The notes beneath the pieces were generated by a model that was not told where the DNA came from, did not search any database, and saw only the letters and a list, made by a program, of their open reading frames with translations. From an uncultured Methanosarcinales archaeon (lineage in GTDB: Archaea; Nanobdellota; Nanobdellia; Woesearchaeales; GW2011-AR9): a DNA stretch of 22,181 nt. Position numbers and translations under genes: made by a program. The stretch lies in the NCBI GenBank assembly GCA_964344235.1, contig CAYFMJ010000013.1, forward strand, positions 1-22,181. The letters are read 5' to 3'. Numbering within the stretch: position 1 is the stretch's first letter; the number at the start of each line of letters is the position of its first letter. Below, in pieces: positions 4,623 through 13,171 of this stretch.

Positions 4623-5246
4623 TTATCGGTGGCTTTTTAGCGCTTTCCTTAACTCCCTAATTGCCCTTCTAGGATTATCACTTTTAGAAGTAAAAGAACC
4701 AGAAATAATGTAATCTGCACCCTTAGCATCACGAACCGTTGTAGGGTGCATGCCGCCGTCAACGTAAATCTTAATTTTCGGATTGATTTTTTGTATTTGT
4801 TTTATTTTTCGTAATGGGGCTTTCAAATATTTCGCACCATAAAATCCTGGATGGACCGTTAAAATAAGAATTTGGTCAATATCTTTCAAGTATGGTCTGA
4901 GTTCTTTCACTTTCGTTTCTGGTTTCAATGCGAAGGCTACTTTTTTCTTTTTTTCTTTAAGATGCGAGATGAACTTTGGAACATTCTTCACAACTTCAAA
5001 TGAAACAATACAGACATCAACTTTATGTCCGTGTCTGTCAATCCACTTCTTGGGGTTGTTGATCATTAGATGAGCATTGTATTTGAACTTCCGACTTAAC
5101 CTAAAAGGAAACCACAACGATTTTGAGGGAACGAATTTACCATCTGCTACGTCTAAATGTAACGTAGAAGCAACACCGTCAAGTCTCTTAAAGAAAGCAT
5201 TCAACTCTTGCTGGTTCTTCGCCATGAGAGAAGGAAATATTTTCAT
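4623..5246 (-). CDS. rpe: Ribulose-phosphate 3-epimerase
   Basis: Motifs PSLMA, HLDVADGKFVP, AHLM, LTVHPGFYG and VDGG; metal ligands H-x-D, H and D are retained. ATGA overlap with rpiB. Confidence 0.93.
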   Translation of the reverse strand: MKIFPSLMAKNQQELNAFFKRLDGVASTLHLDVADGKFVPSKSLWFPFRLSRKFKYNAHLMINNPKKWIDRHGHKVDVCIVSFEVVKNVPKFISHLKEKKKKVAFALKPETKVKELRPYLKDIDQILILTVHPGFYGAKYLKAPLRKIKQIQKINPKIKIYVDGGMHPTTVRDAKGADYIISGSFTSKSDNPRRAIRELRKALKSHR

Positions 5247-5686
5247 CGTTCCATCCGTTTAATTTTTTGAATTCTCCGTTTATGTCGCGGTTTGTTAGAA
5301 AATTTCGTGTTAAGAAATGTTGTGATTATTTTTTTTGATCTGGAAGATGAAAAAAACCAGCCAGATAAACATAACACATTAGCATCATTGTGTTCACGAG
5401 ATAGCTGTGCGAGCTTTGCAGAAGAGGGGTTCACGGCACGAATTCCTTTCATTTTATTCGCAGCAATACACATGCCTTCAGCAGAACCACATAATAGAAT
5501 CCCTTTTGTTCTGCCCTGCACAACAGCTTTCGACACCAACTTAGCATAATCAGGATAGTCGTCGTTCTTGTCAAAGGTATGTGCACCAACGTCTTGATAC
5601 GGGATGTTTTGCTTCTGCAACCATTTGGTGATTTTCTCTTTCAATGCAAAACCTGCATGGTCCGAACCAATGTAAATTGTTTTCAT
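5243..5686 (-). CDS. rpiB: Ribose-5-phosphate isomerase B
   Basis: Motifs GSDHAG, DYPDYA, CGSAEGMCIAANK, REHNDANVL and RH-RRI-KI. Start moved to ATG 5686, which gives an ATGA overlap with the fba stop. Confidence 0.93.
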   Translation of the reverse strand: MKTIYIGSDHAGFALKEKITKWLQKQNIPYQDVGAHTFDKNDDYPDYAKLVSKAVVQGRTKGILLCGSAEGMCIAANKMKGIRAVNPSSAKLAQLSREHNDANVLCLSGWFFSSSRSKKIITTFLNTKFSNKPRHKRRIQKIKRMER

Positions 5687-6600
5687 TTTTTGTTCACACA
5701 TCCAAATGTTTTGATACGTTCCATAGCAACTTCCATGATTTTATCTCTTGCTGGTCCTAGAATTTCGCGAGGGTCAAACTTCTTAGGATATTTCTTGATA
5801 ACTTTCCTCACAGCTGCGTCAAACGCCAATCGTAGGTCCGTATCGGTATTGAATTTAGTAATGCCGTTTCTAATCGCAGTTTTAATTTGTGAATTTGGTA
5901 CACCGTAGACACCGGACAACCGAGCACCATACCTCTCAGCTTGCCTCACTACATTTTGTGGAACACCGGATGCACCATGAAGCACGAGGGGAATCTTAAC
6001 TTTCCGTGTTATTTTTTTCAAAATATCATGTCGTAAATCGGCTTTCCCCCTAAATTTGTACGCACCATGCGAAGTGCCAATGGCCACGGCAAGAAAATCA
6101 CAACCTGTTCGTTTTACAAAATCTCTTGCTTTTTCTGGATCAGTGTACATTATTTTCTTAGCTTCAATCGTATCCTCTTTCCCACCAATTGTGCCGAGTT
6201 CTGCCTCCACTGCAACACCATATCTGTGAGCATAGTCAACGATCTTTTTTGTTTCTCTCACGTTCTGTTCGTATGGTAAGTGGGAGCCGTCAAACATTAC
6301 GGAAGAATATCCTAAACGGATGGCTTTCTTAATAGTGGGAATATCTCTACCATGGTCAAGATGGAATGCAAGGGGAACGTTTGCTATTTCGGAAGCGGTA
6401 TAAGCTAGTTCATACAAAAAATTCATACCAGCATATTTAATCGCTCCCTCAGAAGTAGCAAGGATGATAGGGGCCTTTAATTTGACAGCGGCCTGCACTA
6501 CTCCCTGTAAAATTTCCATGTTGTTGATATTAAAATGTGCAACAGCGTATTTGCCTTTTTGTGCTTTCTTGAGAAGTGTTTTTGTATTTGCAAAACTCAT
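5683..6600 (-). CDS. fba: Class II fructose-1,6-bisphosphate aldolase
   Basis: Motifs FNINNME, HLDHG, SVMFDGS, VEAELG, AIGTSHGAYKF, LVLHGASG and KFNTDTD. Confidence 0.96.
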   Translation of the reverse strand: MSFANTKTLLKKAQKGKYAVAHFNINNMEILQGVVQAAVKLKAPIILATSEGAIKYAGMNFLYELAYTASEIANVPLAFHLDHGRDIPTIKKAIRLGYSSVMFDGSHLPYEQNVRETKKIVDYAHRYGVAVEAELGTIGGKEDTIEAKKIMYTDPEKARDFVKRTGCDFLAVAIGTSHGAYKFRGKADLRHDILKKITRKVKIPLVLHGASGVPQNVVRQAERYGARLSGVYGVPNSQIKTAIRNGITKFNTDTDLRLAFDAAVRKVIKKYPKKFDPREILGPARDKIMEVAMERIKTFGCVNKK

Positions 6601-7559
6601 GGGAACCCCTTACATCTTATTCTATATTTTTTAATCAAAGCATGTGCTTCTTTCTCACTTAGCAGTTTATTCTTTGTACCAACATGTTGAATGACAGAAG
6701 AAGCGTTCGCTTGACCAACGCGCATACCCTCAGAGAATTTATGTCCTTTAATCAATTCTGACAATAGGCCGGCGGTAAATGCATCTCCAGCACCAGCGGT
6801 GTTAACTCGTTTTACTTTTGGAGGTATAAGGGAGTACATGGTCTTTTCGTGCAATCCATAGAAGCGTTTTGTACCATTTGTGATCACAACAGAGGAAGGT
6901 CCCAATGAGTGAAGTTCTTTCAATAAATATGGAAACGATGTTTTGCTAGTGTTAAGCAAAGCTTGTGCTTCTTCTTTGTTAAGAACGAGAAGGGTTGTTG
7001 CTTGTAATATCTCTTTGAGGTAGCGTTTGCCTTTCTTTGCTAGGTATAGTGAAGGGTTGAAGAGAACGTTTATCTTTTTTCTTTGGGCGTATGACGCTAT
7101 TTTTTTAGCAGTATGAAATGATTTTCCCATTAATGTGGCCAGATAAATCCATTTGGCATTAAGTTGTCTTTGTTTGAAGTCATTTTGAGTTAGGTCTTGG
7201 GATGCTCCTTTGAAGGCATAAATTATTCTATCTTTCTCAATAGAAGATGACACAATGGCGGAAGAGTTTGTTGACTTGTTACTTCGCCTAACACAAATAT
7301 TTTTGACTTTATATTGTTTCATTTCCCTCTCAATGAATTTGGCATCGTGATCATCACCTAGTTTTGTAAGCATTTTTACTTTCACTCCAAGCTTTGAAAG
7401 TGCAGCAGCAGCATTGGTCGCGCCACCACCAGAATGGATTTGTTGTTCTGTCACAAGAACTTTATCACCTAACTTAATAGAAGAGAGAGGTCGTTCAACC
7501 TGTAGGAATCTATCAACAACAGCAGAACCTACACATAAAACATCGTATCTACGTAACAT
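6597..7559 (-). CDS. PfkB/ribokinase-family carbohydrate kinase
   Basis: Motifs GGGATNAA, G-D, LNKEEA, VITNG and NTAGAGDAF. Substrate cannot be determined from sequence. Confidence 0.9.
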   Translation of the reverse strand: MLRRYDVLCVGSAVVDRFLQVERPLSSIKLGDKVLVTEQQIHSGGGATNAAAALSKLGVKVKMLTKLGDDHDAKFIEREMKQYKVKNICVRRSNKSTNSSAIVSSSIEKDRIIYAFKGASQDLTQNDFKQRQLNAKWIYLATLMGKSFHTAKKIASYAQRKKINVLFNPSLYLAKKGKRYLKEILQATTLLVLNKEEAQALLNTSKTSFPYLLKELHSLGPSSVVITNGTKRFYGLHEKTMYSLIPPKVKRVNTAGAGDAFTAGLLSELIKGHKFSEGMRVGQANASSVIQHVGTKNKLLSEKEAHALIKKYRIRCKGFP

Positions 7560-7577
7560 CTAGTACCTCTTTTTGTA

Positions 7578-8438
7578 TTATCTATTGATTTTTATTTTAT
7601 AATAGTTGTGTTTCTTGTCAACGAAAATGGTGGAGTTTGGTTTGATTTTTTCATAACAGAGAAACGTCCAGGGGATGAAAATGTCAACAAAGTAATTGAC
7701 TTCTTCTTTTGTCATGCATTTACCCTTTGCCTTACATAGCCGTTTTGCTTGCAGAAAACGCCATTCTTTATGGATATTAGGACAGTTGTAGATGGCGGAG
7801 TAAACACAGTCTGGTTTAATGGAGATCACATAATCAATTTTTTCCCATAGTTTTTGATATTGTGGAATGTATTTAAGAACTGCTTTGTGATAGTTTAGTT
7901 GTGGGTCGAGTTTCTTCAAATCGATGTCGTGTTTTTTGCAGATTCTTTGGAGAATTGATGAAGTAACAGTGGGAATGCCGACACACCACCCTTCAAACAG
8001 TAGGAAGTCTAGCTTCTTTGTAATGCGTTTTGTTTTGGCAACACCACCTTGGGCGTTGTGAAGCGATTTATCAAATACTGGAATGGAAAAATGCTTGCCT
8101 GCTTTGGCTTTTTGTAGTGTAGAGAAGAGGTCTTTGACTTTATGCGTGCCAGGCATACCTCGAGAGATTTGGTAAAATGGGTTATTTTTATGTTTTCTTG
8201 AGAGTTGTTTTCGTTTGGTAATTGTTTCATAGAAATCGTCAATAGAAAATGAAGCGACGTTGTAACCTCTTTGTTGTAATTCTTTGTGTAGGTGCTTAAG
8301 AATTGTTGTTTTTCCAGTTCCCTGGCCACCCTGCATGCCAACGACGAATGGTTTATTGTTGTGTTTCTTTTCTAATCTATCTACAAGAGGGTTGATAATT
8401 CGTTTGTGTTCTTTCTCAGTAAACCTTCTCGCACCCAT
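7578..8438 (-). CDS. D-glycerate 3-kinase (GLYK/Tda10)-like P-loop kinase
   Basis: Motifs G-QG-GKTT, FSIDDFY, RG-PGTH, IPVFDKSL, LFEGWCVG, WR--Q and M---EV--FV are those I associate with the GLYK family. TATA at 8460-8467. Confidence 0.8.
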   Translation of the reverse strand: MGARRFTEKEHKRIINPLVDRLEKKHNNKPFVVGMQGGQGTGKTTILKHLHKELQQRGYNVASFSIDDFYETITKRKQLSRKHKNNPFYQISRGMPGTHKVKDLFSTLQKAKAGKHFSIPVFDKSLHNAQGGVAKTKRITKKLDFLLFEGWCVGIPTVTSSILQRICKKHDIDLKKLDPQLNYHKAVLKYIPQYQKLWEKIDYVISIKPDCVYSAIYNCPNIHKEWRFLQAKRLCKAKGKCMTKEEVNYFVDIFIPWTFLCYEKIKPNSTIFVDKKHNYYKIKINR

Positions 8439-9032: not shown

Positions 9033-10004
9033 ATGCTTATTGAATTTATTTCCATTCTGGCGGGAGTTGCGATTATCTTAGCGTTATCACATTCGATTAT
9101 CAATAATACTGTACGGTTAGCAGATCATTTTGGTTTATCACATACGTTTATTGGGTTAACCGTCTTATCGATAGGGACAAGTATTCCAGAAATAATGACG
9201 CATATTATTGGGAGTGCGAACATTCTCAGTAATCCTGCGAGTATGAATACGTTATCGGGGTTGTTAATTGGGACAAATATTGGATCTGATATTGTCCAAC
9301 AGAATTTTATTCTGCCGTTAATTGGAATTATTGGAGTTATTTTAGTTATCAAGAAAAATTTGTTTGCGCAAATGGGAGGTTTAATCGGAGCTGCGTTGTT
9401 AGTGTTAATTTTCTCTGTCGGGGGGAGGATCACTCGGGTGGAAGGGGGAATTTTATTGATTGCGTACGTTGCGTACTTATTGTATTTGAAATTACGAAAA
9501 GTGGAAGAGAAGTATAAAGCGGAGAATCATTTAACAAATGGAGAAGTTGTACAAGCGATGTTATTTGTGGCGATTTCGTTCGTAATTGTGGCGTTTGTTG
9601 CTGATTTTGTGTTAGGGCAGTCAGAGGTGTTATTGGAATCGTGGTCTATTAGCGCATCGTTCTTTGGATTGATTTTATTGGGTGTTGCAACAGCATTGCC
9701 AGAATTAATGACCGCGCTTGTTGCGGTGTTGAAAAAGAAGAGTGAAATCTCTGCAGGAATTTTAATTGGCAGTAATATTACGAATCCATTATTTGGAATT
9801 GGGATTGGGGCGGTTATTTCAGAATACGTAGTGCCAAAAGTAGTAGTGTATTATGATTTGCCATTCAAAATAGTAACGGCAGGGTTGCTTTATTACTTTT
9901 TGATGAGCGGGAAAAAATTGAGAAAATGGGAGGCAGGATTAATGATAGCGTTGTTCTTGGCGTATTTAGCGGTACGGCAGATTTATTTCCCCGTTGATTT
10001 TTAG
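9033..10004 (+). CDS. Ca2+/Na+ (CaCA, YrbG/NCX_Mj-like) antiporter
   Basis: Two alpha repeats (GTSIPE...IGSD and ATALPE...IGSN) and about 10 TM segments. Start moved from TTG 9018 to ATG 9033 on TATA spacing. Confidence 0.9.
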   Translation: MLIEFISILAGVAIILALSHSIINNTVRLADHFGLSHTFIGLTVLSIGTSIPEIMTHIIGSANILSNPASMNTLSGLLIGTNIGSDIVQQNFILPLIGIIGVILVIKKNLFAQMGGLIGAALLVLIFSVGGRITRVEGGILLIAYVAYLLYLKLRKVEEKYKAENHLTNGEVVQAMLFVAISFVIVAFVADFVLGQSEVLLESWSISASFFGLILLGVATALPELMTALVAVLKKKSEISAGILIGSNITNPLFGIGIGAVISEYVVPKVVVYYDLPFKIVTAGLLYYFLMSGKKLRKWEAGLMIALFLAYLAVRQIYFPVDF

Positions 10005-10801
10005 AGTTTGCTTGTTAAAGTTAAAGCAGCTGCACGCATCTCTTCACGAGTGTTGAAACGACCCTCTGCTTTGTTTTGATAAATCCCTCTACCGACAATT
10101 GCGTGAAATCTTGGTCCTGCTGCTTCCGCTCCCTTACTTAATTCACCGCCTTGTGCTACTAAACCAGGCGACCAAACTGTGAGTTCTGGAAACCCAAGGT
10201 CATCTAATCGCTCTCTATACTTGGTAATCTGGCTTGGTTTATTCCCAGGAAATACAAAGTTGGTAATACCCATGCGAGCTGCGATTTCATAGATGTCAGA
10301 GGGTGCTCGTCGAGTGATATAACCAGTAGCCAAAAATCTTATGCCGAGTCCTCTAAGTATTTCTGTATAATTTATACCAGAATTGCCATTACTAATATCT
10401 CCTTCTAAGTAGCGTGGGTGAGTCATCTCTCCACCAATAATAACCGGAAGATCTATCTCTTGCGCTGCTCTAATCCATTCATATTGGGTAACTGGGCCAG
10501 CTTGAGGAAAGAGAATAATTGCATCAATGCCTGCTTCTTTTACAGGACCCATCATTGTTTTTGCCGTCGCAGGGATATCTGTTCCCCATTTCTGTGGATC
10601 AAAGATGAGTGGTTTGTCTGTGTGTTCCCGTGCTGCGGCAACAACAGCATCATAGCCTGGGCGACCCATTAATGCAAGGCCAACTTTGTAGCCACCAACC
10701 GCGTCAATATCTGCAGTAGCTGCTACGATATCTCTAAACACTTCCAAAGGAACATCACATGCTGGTACAACACTTCTATCTCTTTCAATTATTCTTGTCA
10801 T
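10001..10801 (-). CDS. pyrF: Orotidine-5'-phosphate decarboxylase
   Basis: Motifs PACDV, GYKVG, D-QK-GTDIP, IILFPQAGP, EMTH, SPG--AQGG and IVGR-IY. True start is probably ATG 10801, preceded by GAGGT-AATAATA, rather than 10846. Confidence 0.9.
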   Translation of the reverse strand: MTRIIERDRSVVPACDVPLEVFRDIVAATADIDAVGGYKVGLALMGRPGYDAVVAAAREHTDKPLIFDPQKWGTDIPATAKTMMGPVKEAGIDAIILFPQAGPVTQYEWIRAAQEIDLPVIIGGEMTHPRYLEGDISNGNSGINYTEILRGLGIRFLATGYITRRAPSDIYEIAARMGITNFVFPGNKPSQITKYRERLDDLGFPELTVWSPGLVAQGGELSKGAEAAGPRFHAIVGRGIYQNKAEGRFNTREEMRAAALTLTSKL

Positions 10802-10806
10802 TATTA

Positions 10807-11752
10807 TTACCTCTCCAATCTTGGAAATCCATGTGCAGCACCCCACCCCAAAGGATCTTCACGCCATCGTTGGAGTAGTGCTTTCTGCGACTTCTAATAA
10901 AGTATCGTAATCTAGAATTGAATGCAAAGGAGTGTCAACTCTGGCGAAACTAGCTGCACTTGTGTCAAGGCCGTAATTAAAAATTGAGAGGCAAGCGACG
11001 ACATTGGCTCCATTTTTCTGTTCCTCAGCAATTTCTTTCGCTGCGCTTCCTCCCATACTCACAAGATCTTCAACCTTTAGAACCTTTTTACCAAAAGCAG
11101 GATTAATTCCCTCTCGATATGCCTCTCTTTCAAGAGGGCGTGAGTCTCTGCCAACAACCGTAACACCTCGCTCTTCTAACACGGCAACAGCTCGATCACA
11201 GTACTGCTCTGCAGGATCGACAAAACGATCAATGACAAAAGCTCTTTGTCCAGGAACAATGAGTCCTTCGGTTTGCTGCTTTAAGCCATGGCCTTTCTTC
11301 TTTTGTCGTACATACATGAACGGTAGTTGATGAGCATTTGCAGCAATAACTCCCGGAACAATAGCATAAGGGCACGTGCTGGCAATAGCCTCTGCATCTC
11401 CAATATCAGTTTCTTTATACCTCTCAAAGAGCTCTGGAGTAAAGAGAAGTGATCTCTCGGGGGTTTGCAAAAGAAGAGGCAACCCATATTGTTCCGCCAG
11501 TGATACGGCTGGTGCGATACCAGCAGTCATCGTGCCTGAGATCATTTCCGGTTCCAAGCCACGGTCCCAAATGAGAGATTCAAACCCCACAGTAACGAGA
11601 AGACGATGTGCAGGGTCACCGAGTAGTTTACGGTTATCATTATAAATTGGCATACGGTAACCGGAAGCCCACGTAAAAGGATCGTCAGGAGAAAGTTTAA
11701 TGGAAGGGATATCTAGTGAAACTTTGGCAAGTCGTCTTCCATAGTCATTCAT
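10807..11752 (-). CDS. pyrE: Orotate phosphoribosyltransferase with a nested duplicated PRT core and a frameshifted C-terminus
   Basis: Motifs PFTWASG-RMPIYNDNR, GT-TAGI, YVR-K-K-HG, VEDLVSMGGS, SIFNYG and DYDTL-EVA. The track ORF ends at 10859, but the +1 frame 10890-10807 encodes SQKALLQRWREDPLGWGAAHGFPRLER*. Confidence 0.88.
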
Positions 11753-11815: not shown

Positions 11816-13171
11816 TTACTTTGTTGTCTTAATGTGAACGTCCCTCAGTTGTTCCCCAGAAACTCCAGACGGTGCGTCCATCATGATGTCACGCGCTTCT
11901 TTATTTTTTGGAAACGCAATAACGTCCCTAATTGATTCTTTCCCTGCCATAATCATTGCCCATCGATCCAAGCCAAATGCAATACCACCATGTGGAGGAG
12001 CGAACTGTAACGCATCTAGTAGGAAGCCGAATTTTTCTTTCGCTTCTTTTTCTGATAACCCTAACGCTTTGAAAACTTGTTTCTGTAAATCATTATCATG
12101 AATCCTAATCGACCCGCCACCGATTTCAAATCCATTTAACACTAAATCATAAGCACGGCTGTGCACTTTCTCTTTAGCATCTTCTAGGTATTTCACATCA
12201 TCCATATTCGGAGAAGTGAAAGGGTGGTGCATTGCAACAAATCTATTTTCTTCTTCACTAAATTCGAACATAGGAAAATCAGTAACCCACAAGAAGGCAA
12301 ACTCTTCTCCTTTCTTTCGTAGATCGGGTTTGTCAGAATTATGTTTTTTCATAACTTCTTTGTATGTCATTCTCGGGAATGGTGTTTTAATATCCTTGTT
12401 AAGAACTTGTTTAAAGACAAATTTCATTAAACGTTCCATGGAGTCATAGATGTCTTCTTCATCAACAAAACTCATCTCTATGTCAAGTTGGGTGAACTCC
12501 GGTTGTCGATCTGCTCGTAGGTCCTCATCCCTAAAACAACGGGCTATTTGAAAATACCGATCGAAGCCAGAGACCATCAATAATTGTTTGAAGATTTGTG
12601 GTGATTGAGGTAGGGCAAAGAATTTCCTTGGAAAGGTTCTACTTGGTACAATATAGTCACGGGCACCTTCCGGTGTTGATTTTGCTAGAATGGGAGTTTC
12701 GATTTCCACAAAGTTTTCTTTATCGAGAAATGTGTGAATTGCATTGAGTAATTTATGTTTTAACACAATAGACTGTTGCATTTCTGGTTGGCGAAGATCT
12801 AAGTATCTGTATTGTAATCGCGTTTCTTCCGTTGACTCAACGTTGAAGTCTAGAGGTAGCTCCGGAACTTTTTTGAGAATAGTGATTTCAGTGGCAGATA
12901 ATTCGATCTCTCCGGTTCCTTTCCCTTTCACTTGGTTCGCTGGACGGGCTTTCACTTCCCCTTTTACCTGCAGGACATCTTCCCTACTAAGTGTTTTGAA
13001 TTCCTGTGCTAAGTCTTTATTGAGAAATACTTGTGTTTTACCATATCGGTCACGTAAATGTAAGAAACCAATTTTCCCACCTATACGAACGGAGTCAACC
13101 CAACCGGCTAGTGAAACTTTTTTACCAGCATGTTTCTTGGATAATTCCCCACATGTATGAGTTCGTAACAT
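11816..13171 (-). CDS. aspS: Aspartyl-tRNA synthetase, bacterial type, lacking the GAD domain
   Basis: Motifs RTH-CG, STPEGARDY-VPSR, LPQSPQ-FKQLLM, CFRDEDLRADRQPEFTQ-D-EMSF, HHPFT, GGGSIRIH and PPHGG-A-GLDR. 451 aa. Confidence 0.96.
   Translation of the reverse strand: MLRTHTCGELSKKHAGKKVSLAGWVDSVRIGGKIGFLHLRDRYGKTQVFLNKDLAQEFKTLSREDVLQVKGEVKARPANQVKGKGTGEIELSATEITILKKVPELPLDFNVESTEETRLQYRYLDLRQPEMQQSIVLKHKLLNAIHTFLDKENFVEIETPILAKSTPEGARDYIVPSRTFPRKFFALPQSPQIFKQLLMVSGFDRYFQIARCFRDEDLRADRQPEFTQLDIEMSFVDEEDIYDSMERLMKFVFKQVLNKDIKTPFPRMTYKEVMKKHNSDKPDLRKKGEEFAFLWVTDFPMFEFSEEENRFVAMHHPFTSPNMDDVKYLEDAKEKVHSRAYDLVLNGFEIGGGSIRIHDNDLQKQVFKALGLSEKEAKEKFGFLLDALQFAPPHGGIAFGLDRWAMIMAGKESIRDVIAFPKNKEARDIMMDAPSGVSGEQLRDVHIKTTK

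What the first reader, a model, noticed from the sequence alone, without database searches (positions are those of the whole stretch)
11090..11480. PyrE with a second PRTase core nested in its catalytic loop: a possible single-chain pseudo-dimer
Seen: the core appears twice, one copy inside the other. The outer copy has EMISGTMTAGIAPAVSLAEQYGLPL (69-93) and resumes at EGINPAFGKKVLKVEDLVSMGGS (214-236), with an intact PRPP motif but no loop. The inner copy (about 119-201; nt 11150-11398) has EAIASTCPYAIVPGVIAANAHQLPFMYVRQKKKGHG...EG...GQRAFVIDRFVDPAEQ, with an intact R-x-K-x-K-x-H loop but a degenerate PRPP motif. The net gain is about 105 aa. Known: in homodimeric OPRTase the flexible loop of one subunit completes the active site of the other. 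Inference: the two half-functional copies complement each other within one chain, or the inner domain is regulatory. I do not know of this architecture being described.
Basis: partly seen in the sequence, partly recalled or inferred. Interest (0 to 1): 0.8.

Follow-up and report, generated by a model that had tools for sequence, protein, structure and literature searches.

The report
Pyrimidine enzyme carrying its own partner
An enzyme for making pyrimidine nucleotides that normally works as a pair, each half lending the other a catalytic loop, appears here as one chain with a cut-down second copy tucked inside it to supply that loop; about 120 relatives share the design, although this genome's copy is damaged at its tail.

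Summary
Confirmed. The ORF at 10859-11752 (-) is PyrE with a second PRT half-core (residues ~121-206) nested in it. About 120 homologs of 310-350 aa, mostly from DPANN archaea plus some CPR bacteria, share it; most sit beside pyrF and are the only PyrE found. Labour is divided. The outer core keeps the hood, PPi loop and PRPP motif, but its flexible loop is cut to a beta-turn (0/120 have it). The inner core keeps only the trans-acting R149/K153/H155 loop; R149 is the one invariant residue. A split-chain model docks the inner core on the outer through the canonical OPRT dimer surface (score 0.90, best control 0.00; possibly from memory of solved dimers). A separate set of 55 head-to-tail PyrE-PyrE fusions shows the same split. 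Best reading: a single-chain pseudo-dimer with one active site; activity and oligomeric state are untested. pyrB and pyrD are also broken in this genome, so an intact homolog should be assayed. No description was found in the literature searched.

The parts
10859..11752 (-). nested pyrE ORF, 297 aa (P0001)
11465..11752 (-). outer core, N-half (res 1-96): hood with D39/N40/R41, helix with R50, PPi loop G73-G78, helix B, strand 2
   Evidence: VIA Z 24.9, rmsd 1.9, 184 aligned to 2aee
11441..11464 (-). outer beta-turn and closing strand (res 97-104) where the flexible loop has been excised
   Evidence: DSSP E93-96 and E101-104; loop motif in 0 of 120 homologs
11393..11440 (-). linker 1 (res 105-120), variable in sequence
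11135..11392 (-). inner PRT half-core (res 121-206): strand 1, helix B, strand 2, flexible loop, strand 3, helix C, strand 4; no hood, no strand 5
11360..11380 (-). inner degenerate PPi loop (S125-I131) with conserved P128 and aromatic 129, packing on the outer core in the model
11264..11308 (-). inner catalytic flexible loop R149-K153-H155-G156-E162-G163 (equivalents of R99, K103, H105)
   Evidence: R149 invariant in 120; K153 99%, H155 98%
11201..11230 (-). inner degenerate PRPP motif (D175-Y184), acidic pair lost
11093..11134 (-). linker 2 (res 207-220) returning to the outer core
10886..11092 (-). outer core, C-half (res 221-289): strand 3, PRPP motif, helix C, strands 4-5
11045..11071 (-). 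intact PRPP-binding motif E228-S236
   Evidence: E228 98%, D229 99%, S236 99% in 120 homologs
10807..10888 (-). junction of an inferred ~29-nt deletion (near 10881-10888) and the stranded, out-of-frame C-terminal tail with the family's two conserved tryptophans
   Evidence: tblastn frame change; same junction in five contigs from four runs
10001..10801 (-). pyrF (OMP decarboxylase), directly downstream
11816..13171 (-). aspS upstream; the aspS-pyrE-pyrF order is shared with the closest intact homolog (L140)

Best explanation
The family is a single-chain pseudo-dimeric orotate phosphoribosyltransferase with one active site. In ordinary PyrE each subunit binds orotate and PRPP while the partner subunit lends the loop with R99, K103 and H105 (published). 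Here a duplicated half-core is inserted just after the outer loop position (shown by sequence and fold). It has kept the dimer-forming helix and strand and the R/K/H loop, and has lost its hood and both phosphate-binding loops (shown by conservation). It docks on the outer core as the partner subunit would (modelled). Its loop would then close over the outer active site to bind pyrophosphate and drive orotate + PRPP to OMP + PPi for the neighbouring PyrF (inferred). The outer loop, having no site to serve, shrank to a turn (inferred). The window's own copy has lost its last ~30 family residues to a deletion and may be impaired; pyrB and pyrD are broken in the same genome.
For: Conservation is split along the known cis/trans line. 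Outer core: D39 95%, R41 96%, R50 99%, G78 99%, E228 98%, D229 99%, S236 99%. Inner core: Y/F147 100%, R149 100%, K153 99%, H155 98%, E162 99%. The outer equivalents of Y147 and R149 are Ile and E/D/H, and the helix-B Asp is kept as N/D/E139 inside but is variable outside. The loop motif is in 119/120 inner and 0/120 outer copies. AF2 whole chain: pLDDT 94.6, pTM 0.92. Split-chain model: score 0.90, best control 0.00; the mark was reached by 58 of 80 solved and 2 of 110 mismatched pairs, counts that hold only roughly for this three-chain job; runs agree in at least 98% of contacts, partner pLDDT at least 87. Its contacts are helix 79-87 on helix 131-139, L44/R50 on 138-146, with R149, R41 and PPi loop 75-77 in the interface, which are the elements listed for the MtOPRT dimer (PMC5430920). 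pyrF is adjacent in 17 of 24 loci. It is the only PyrE-like gene found in G000 and in 8 of 10 other MAGs. 55 tandem PyrE-PyrE fusions show the same split.
Against: No activity or oligomer measurement exists. The docking pass may come from the model's memory of solved OPRT dimers, so it shows likeness rather than binding. The split-chain job cannot tell a within-chain from a between-chain arrangement. The window's copy is truncated and sits in a pathway with broken pyrB and pyrD.
Confidence: 0.75

Rival explanations
1. Same division of labour, but between chains: the protein forms a swapped homodimer in which the inner core of one chain caps the outer site of the other.
For: All conservation evidence and the split-chain docking fit equally well, and OPRTases are normally dimers.
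Against: The single chain folds with pTM 0.92 and confident linkers, so a compact arrangement is feasible. The spacing from outer P92 to inner P128 is never below 31 residues, which fits a required reach within one chain. A swapped dimer gives no obvious reason to keep the fusion.
Confidence: 0.13
2. The inner core is a regulatory or ligand-sensing domain that binds a nucleotide and controls the outer enzyme.
For: S125, T126, P128, aromatic 129 and Y184 are conserved around the former ligand pocket. PRT folds are reused as sensors in PyrR and PurR (own knowledge).
Against: The inner core has no hood, no acidic pair and a variable P-loop. Residues 127-129 lie in the modelled interface, which explains their conservation. 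The most conserved inner residues are the catalytic trans residues, which the outer core lacks and needs.
Confidence: 0.06
3. The nested protein has shifted function (another base acceptor, or non-catalytic) and is no longer an OPRTase.
For: It scores below the TIGR00336 cut-off (83.7 against 106.8). Two of ten MAGs hold another PRT-like gene.
Against: The low score comes from the split alignment. The hood and PRPP residues match canonical PyrE, pyrF is adjacent or fused (P0131), and pyrB, pyrC and pyrD are nearby in several loci.
Confidence: 0.04
4. The duplication is an assembly artefact or a meaningless one-off.
For: The genome is a MAG with other frameshifts.
Against: About 120 diverse homologs at 23-52% identity share it; the inner and outer copies are only about 22% identical; the same protein is in contigs from four runs and two assembly sources.
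Confidence: 0.01

Closest known systems
Homodimeric orotate phosphoribosyltransferase PyrE, Streptococcus/Bacillus type (PDB 2aee, 3dez, 3m3h, 4rv4; NF001729)
   Same: Hood, PRT core, PRPP motif and R/K/H loop are all present; the outer core superposes at Z 24.9, rmsd 1.9 A over 184 residues; pyrF is adjacent.
   Different: The loop and the binding site lie on two different cores in one chain. The second core is reduced to about 86 residues and the outer loop is deleted. One predicted site per chain instead of two per dimer.
Engineered OPRT heterodimers with loop-dead or site-dead subunits (Ozturk et al. 1995, as cited in bioRxiv 10.1101/2025.01.14.632917)
   Same: They establish the shared site: binding pocket on one subunit, covering loop on the other.
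   Different: Those are laboratory point mutants on separate chains. Here it is natural, covalent, nested and conserved.
Head-to-tail PyrE-PyrE fusions of 430-470 aa (found here; an automatically named 437-aa ESM Atlas cluster probably corresponds)
   Same: The N-domain keeps R, K and H/Y (55/55 each) and has lost the acidic pair; the C-domain keeps the hood D and R, the acidic pair and the final Ser, and has lost the loop R and K.
   Different: Two full-length domains in series, not nested, and the degenerate motifs differ. The tree cannot say whether the two designs share an origin (p-AU 0.45).
Archaeal tRNA splicing endonuclease series (homotetramer, heterotetramer, fused homodimer; PMC11837038)
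   Same: Duplication, fusion and split of catalytic and partner roles with the function retained.
   Different: Unrelated fold, and a tandem fusion rather than insertion of a cut-down copy into itself.
PRPP synthetase, PurR and PyrR
   Same: Proteins with a doubled or repurposed PRT fold; they appear lower in the inner-core fold search.
   Different: Their domains are in series or regulatory. The inner core here matches OPRTases best and carries the OPRT loop.

Membership tests
PyrE / OPRTase (type I PRT) | Type I PRT fold with hood | tested here: met
   AF2 pLDDT 94.6; VIA Z 24.9, rmsd 1.9, 184 aligned to 2aee
PyrE / OPRTase (type I PRT) | PRPP-binding motif with acidic pair | tested here: met
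   E228-D229 and S236 in the outer core, 98-99% conserved
PyrE / OPRTase (type I PRT) | Hood residues for orotate and pyrophosphate (D-x-R) | tested here: met
   D39 95%, N40 95%, R41 96%
PyrE / OPRTase (type I PRT) | Flexible loop with R99/K103/H105 equivalents | tested here: met
   R149, K153, H155 present, but on the inserted core only
PyrE / OPRTase (type I PRT) | One core per chain, each carrying both loop and site (canonical architecture) | tested here: not met
   Two cores with complementary losses
PyrE / OPRTase (type I PRT) | Curated HMM cut-off (TIGR00336, 106.8 bits) | tested here: not met
   83.7 bits over three stretches; the insert breaks the alignment
PyrE / OPRTase (type I PRT) | Linkage to de novo pyrimidine genes | tested here: met
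   pyrF adjacent in 17 of 24 loci; PyrF fusion P0131
PyrE / OPRTase (type I PRT) | Homodimer in solution | not testable with these tools
   Needs SEC-MALS; the split-chain model suggests the dimer surface is used within the chain
PyrE / OPRTase (type I PRT) | Orotate + PRPP to OMP activity | not testable with these tools
   Needs an assay or complementation
Nested PyrE family (defined here) | C-terminal helices with two conserved tryptophans | tested here: not met
   The window's copy loses them to a ~29-nt deletion; the tail survives out of frame at 10807-10887
Regulatory PRT-fold domain (PyrR/PurR-like) for the inner core | Intact PRPP or nucleotide-binding loops | tested here: not met
   Acidic pair absent and P-loop variable in the inner core

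The most novel reading that the evidence does not exclude
A natural monomeric, single-site OPRTase made by inserting a minimal loop-donor copy of the enzyme into itself. It would be one end of a series visible in the data: homodimer, adjacent gene pair with complementary lesions (one case, G074), head-to-tail fusion with split roles (55 proteins), nested minimal pseudo-dimer (about 120 proteins).
Probability: 0.65. Interest if true: 0.72.

Novelty: new variant of a known kind. Interest (0 to 1): 0.63.

Why it matters
OPRTase is a textbook shared-active-site homodimer, and the yeast enzyme was proposed to use alternating-site catalysis (McClard 2006, title seen in the references of PMC9978035). 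A natural enzyme with one permanent site and one permanent loop donor tests directly whether the second site is needed, and defines the smallest part of a partner subunit that catalysis requires (about 86 residues). With the tandem fusions it is a clean natural case of a homodimer's roles being split after duplication. In practice these genes fall below PyrE cut-offs and NCBI names many of them hypothetical proteins, so pyrimidine synthesis in some DPANN and CPR genomes is probably under-called.

Tried and rejected
Pfam gave no hit on the window protein. Foldseek and the ESM Atlas returned only single-core OPRTases, which does not prove absence. Literature searches for a pseudodimer, internal duplication, monomeric or DPANN PyrE found nothing relevant; the library lacks most subscription papers, and PMC3436960 was not held. 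Earlier scan notes had nothing on this family. Trees on 144 outer-core columns are poorly resolved. FastTree split the nested set in two, but a single origin is not rejected (p-AU 0.98), and neither is grouping with the tandem C-domains (p-AU 0.45), so no donor or order of events is claimed. A homodimer prediction was not run because the one complex job went to the interface. Rejected: assembly artefact, chance motif similarity, and plain tandem duplication (the order is A-A'-B'-B, not A-B-A'-B'). The E. coli R44-D92 cross-dimer pair was not equated with R50-N139, because I could not verify the register.

Full report
Observation. The finding lies in an ORF at 10859-11752 on the minus strand, 297 aa, between aspS and pyrF. 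Against solved structures the protein matches Streptococcus and Bacillus OPRTases in three pieces: residues 6-93, 133-174 and 221-290. The middle piece carries the flexible loop and the last the PRPP motif. The order is A, A', loop, B', B: a half-core nested in the core, not a tandem repeat.

The insert is a PRT core. Its profile matches canonical PyrE at probability 99.7 (E 6e-27) and the outer core at 94.3 (E 1e-7, 22% identity). Folded alone it gives pLDDT 94.5, and its top three matches among 48,161 chains are OPRT domains (Z 11.6, 11.2, 10.8; rmsd 2.7-2.9; 88-93 residues aligned). The whole chain folds at pLDDT 94.6, pTM 0.92, and 184 residues spanning 2-297 superpose on 2aee at 1.9 A, Z 24.9. 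The outer strand 93-96 pairs with 101-104 through a short turn, the loop-less equivalent of the inner 145-148 and 161-163 hairpin. So the outer loop was excised and the insert follows it (inference from secondary structure).

It is a family. Searches gave about 120 non-redundant proteins of mostly 310-350 aa with the same nesting. Named carriers are Woesearchaeota, Pacearchaeota and Nanoarchaeia MAGs, plus a Minisyncoccia and an Absconditabacterales genome on contigs of 840 and 677 kb. In the window's own order 9 of 401 genomes have the nested form, while about 114 have weaker matches, nearly all ordinary-length PyrE (this tally includes five genomes flagged unpublished, none of which carries the nested form). 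pyrF is adjacent in 17 of 24 loci, with pyrB, pyrC and pyrD nearby in several, and one member is fused to PyrF. The nested gene is the only PyrE found in G000 and in 8 of 10 other MAGs. The second hit examined in the other two is a divergent 373-aa PRT-like protein without the standard motif.

Division of labour. Published structures place the ribose-binding acidic pair, the 5'-phosphate loop and a hood arginine on the binding subunit, and the loop arginine and lysine on the neighbour (PMC5430920; PMC10087573; bioRxiv 2025.01.14.632917). Comparing 99 canonical PyrE with 120 nested proteins, the outer core keeps every own-subunit feature (D39, N40, R41, G73, G78, E228, D229, S232, S236) and none of the loop. 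The inner core keeps Y/F147, R149, K153, H155, G156, E162 and G163, and replaces the PPi loop and the PRPP motif. R149 is the only invariant position in the whole alignment. The loop motif is in 119 inner and 0 outer copies. Strong selection on a loop whose own core cannot bind substrate is most simply explained if it serves the other core.

Geometry. The chain was cut into outer-N (1-106), outer-C (219-292) and inner (118-207) and folded as a complex. Score 0.90, best of three controls 0.00; the mark was reached by 58 of 80 solved and 2 of 110 mismatched pairs in calibration, counts that hold only roughly for this job. Runs agreed in at least 98% of contacts, with partner pLDDT at least 87. 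Helix 79-87 crosses helix 131-139, and L44, G45 and R50 touch 138-146. R149, R41 and the PPi loop 75-77 are all in the interface. These are the elements named for the MtOPRT dimer: helices 2 and 3, all of helix 4 and strand 4. Solved OPRT dimers exist, so the pass may reflect memory; it shows that the inner core still looks like a partner subunit, not that it binds. It also cannot separate within-chain from swapped arrangements.

Parallel case. The same searches exposed head-to-tail PyrE-PyrE fusions of 430-470 aa. In 55 of them the N-domain keeps R (55/55), K (55/55) and H/Y (55/55) and has lost the acidic pair. The C-domain keeps the hood D and R, E/D-D and the final Ser, and has lost the loop arginine and lysine. 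One sits in a full pyr operon. In G074 two adjacent pyrE genes show complementary single lesions, E to K in the PRPP motif of one and K to N in the loop of the other. Trees cannot tell whether nested and tandem forms share an origin.

This copy is damaged. Homologs continue about 30 residues past A289 with two conserved tryptophans. Here the frame shifts near 10881-10888 and the tail survives out of frame at 10807-10887. Spacing against P0002 implies a deletion of about 29 nt (inference). The junction is identical in five contigs from four runs and two assembly sources, so it is probably real. In the same genome the pyrB-pyrI fusion is frameshifted, pyrD stops just after its catalytic loop where the convergent pyrC ends, and no carbamoyl-phosphate synthetase was found at 96% completeness. 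Nucleotide synthesis appears to be decaying in this strain. MtOPRT works without the C-terminal helices, so residual activity is possible.

Verdict. The family most likely works as a single-chain pseudo-dimeric OPRTase with one active site (0.75); a swapped dimer (0.13), a regulatory insert (0.06) and a changed function (0.04) remain open. It works like PyrE but does not have the canonical PyrE architecture. No description was found in the literature searched. It is a new variant of a known kind, interest 0.63.

Noticed in passing
P0137, P0148, P0153, P0191, P0262-P0303; L136:1604-2935 (G390:C34); L139:5001-6311: A second family of at least 55 head-to-tail PyrE-PyrE fusions (430-470 aa) whose N-domain keeps only the catalytic loop and whose C-domain keeps only the binding site. 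Named members include Thermoplasmata and Planctomycetota MAGs.
   Followed up: partly
L137:1908-3269 (G074:C3): Two adjacent pyrE genes with complementary lesions (E to K in the PRPP motif of one, K103-equivalent to N in the other): a candidate obligate heterodimer. L138 (G180) also has two adjacent pyrE-like genes, both with largely intact motifs.
   Followed up: partly
L101:1465-3122 (G000:C5) and L100:1465-2112 (G000:C1): In this genome the pyrB-pyrI fusion is frameshifted near L101:2165, pyrD is truncated to a 215-codon frame against about 350 in a homolog, and no carbamoyl-phosphate synthetase was found.
   Followed up: partly
P0131 (L102:6001-7839); P0186 (L105:6001-8037); P0183: Nested PyrE also occurs fused behind PyrF (612 aa, UMP-synthase-like), and with uncharacterised C-terminal extensions (678 aa, followed by pyrF; 430 aa).
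   Followed up: partly
L044:2456-7000 and L045:4932-5957: CPR bacteria carry the nested form: a Minisyncoccia genome next to pyrD, pyrC and pyrF, and an Absconditabacterales genome next to an ATP synthase gene. This suggests transfer between DPANN and CPR, direction unknown.
   Followed up: no
L098:1298-2419 (G067:C9): A 373-aa PRT-like protein with an N-terminal extension and degenerate PRPP motif, directly before an AMP-phosphorylase-like gene; a similar hit lies in G068.
   Followed up: no
window 11816-13171 (-): The aspS looks bacterial in type by eye but is only 451 aa, with no GAD insertion domain hit at E 1e-8, in an archaeal genome.
   Followed up: no
window 4623-8438 (-): A sugar-phosphate cluster: ribulose-phosphate epimerase, RpiB, class II aldolase, PfkB kinase and a PRK/uridine-kinase-like P-loop protein (286 aa) of unclear substrate.
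   Followed up: no
window 11054-11056 (-), residue M233: The conserved Thr of the PRPP loop is Met here and in a few intact relatives (P0002, P0003, P0005, P0123), so it is a lineage trait and not a sign of decay.
   Followed up: partly
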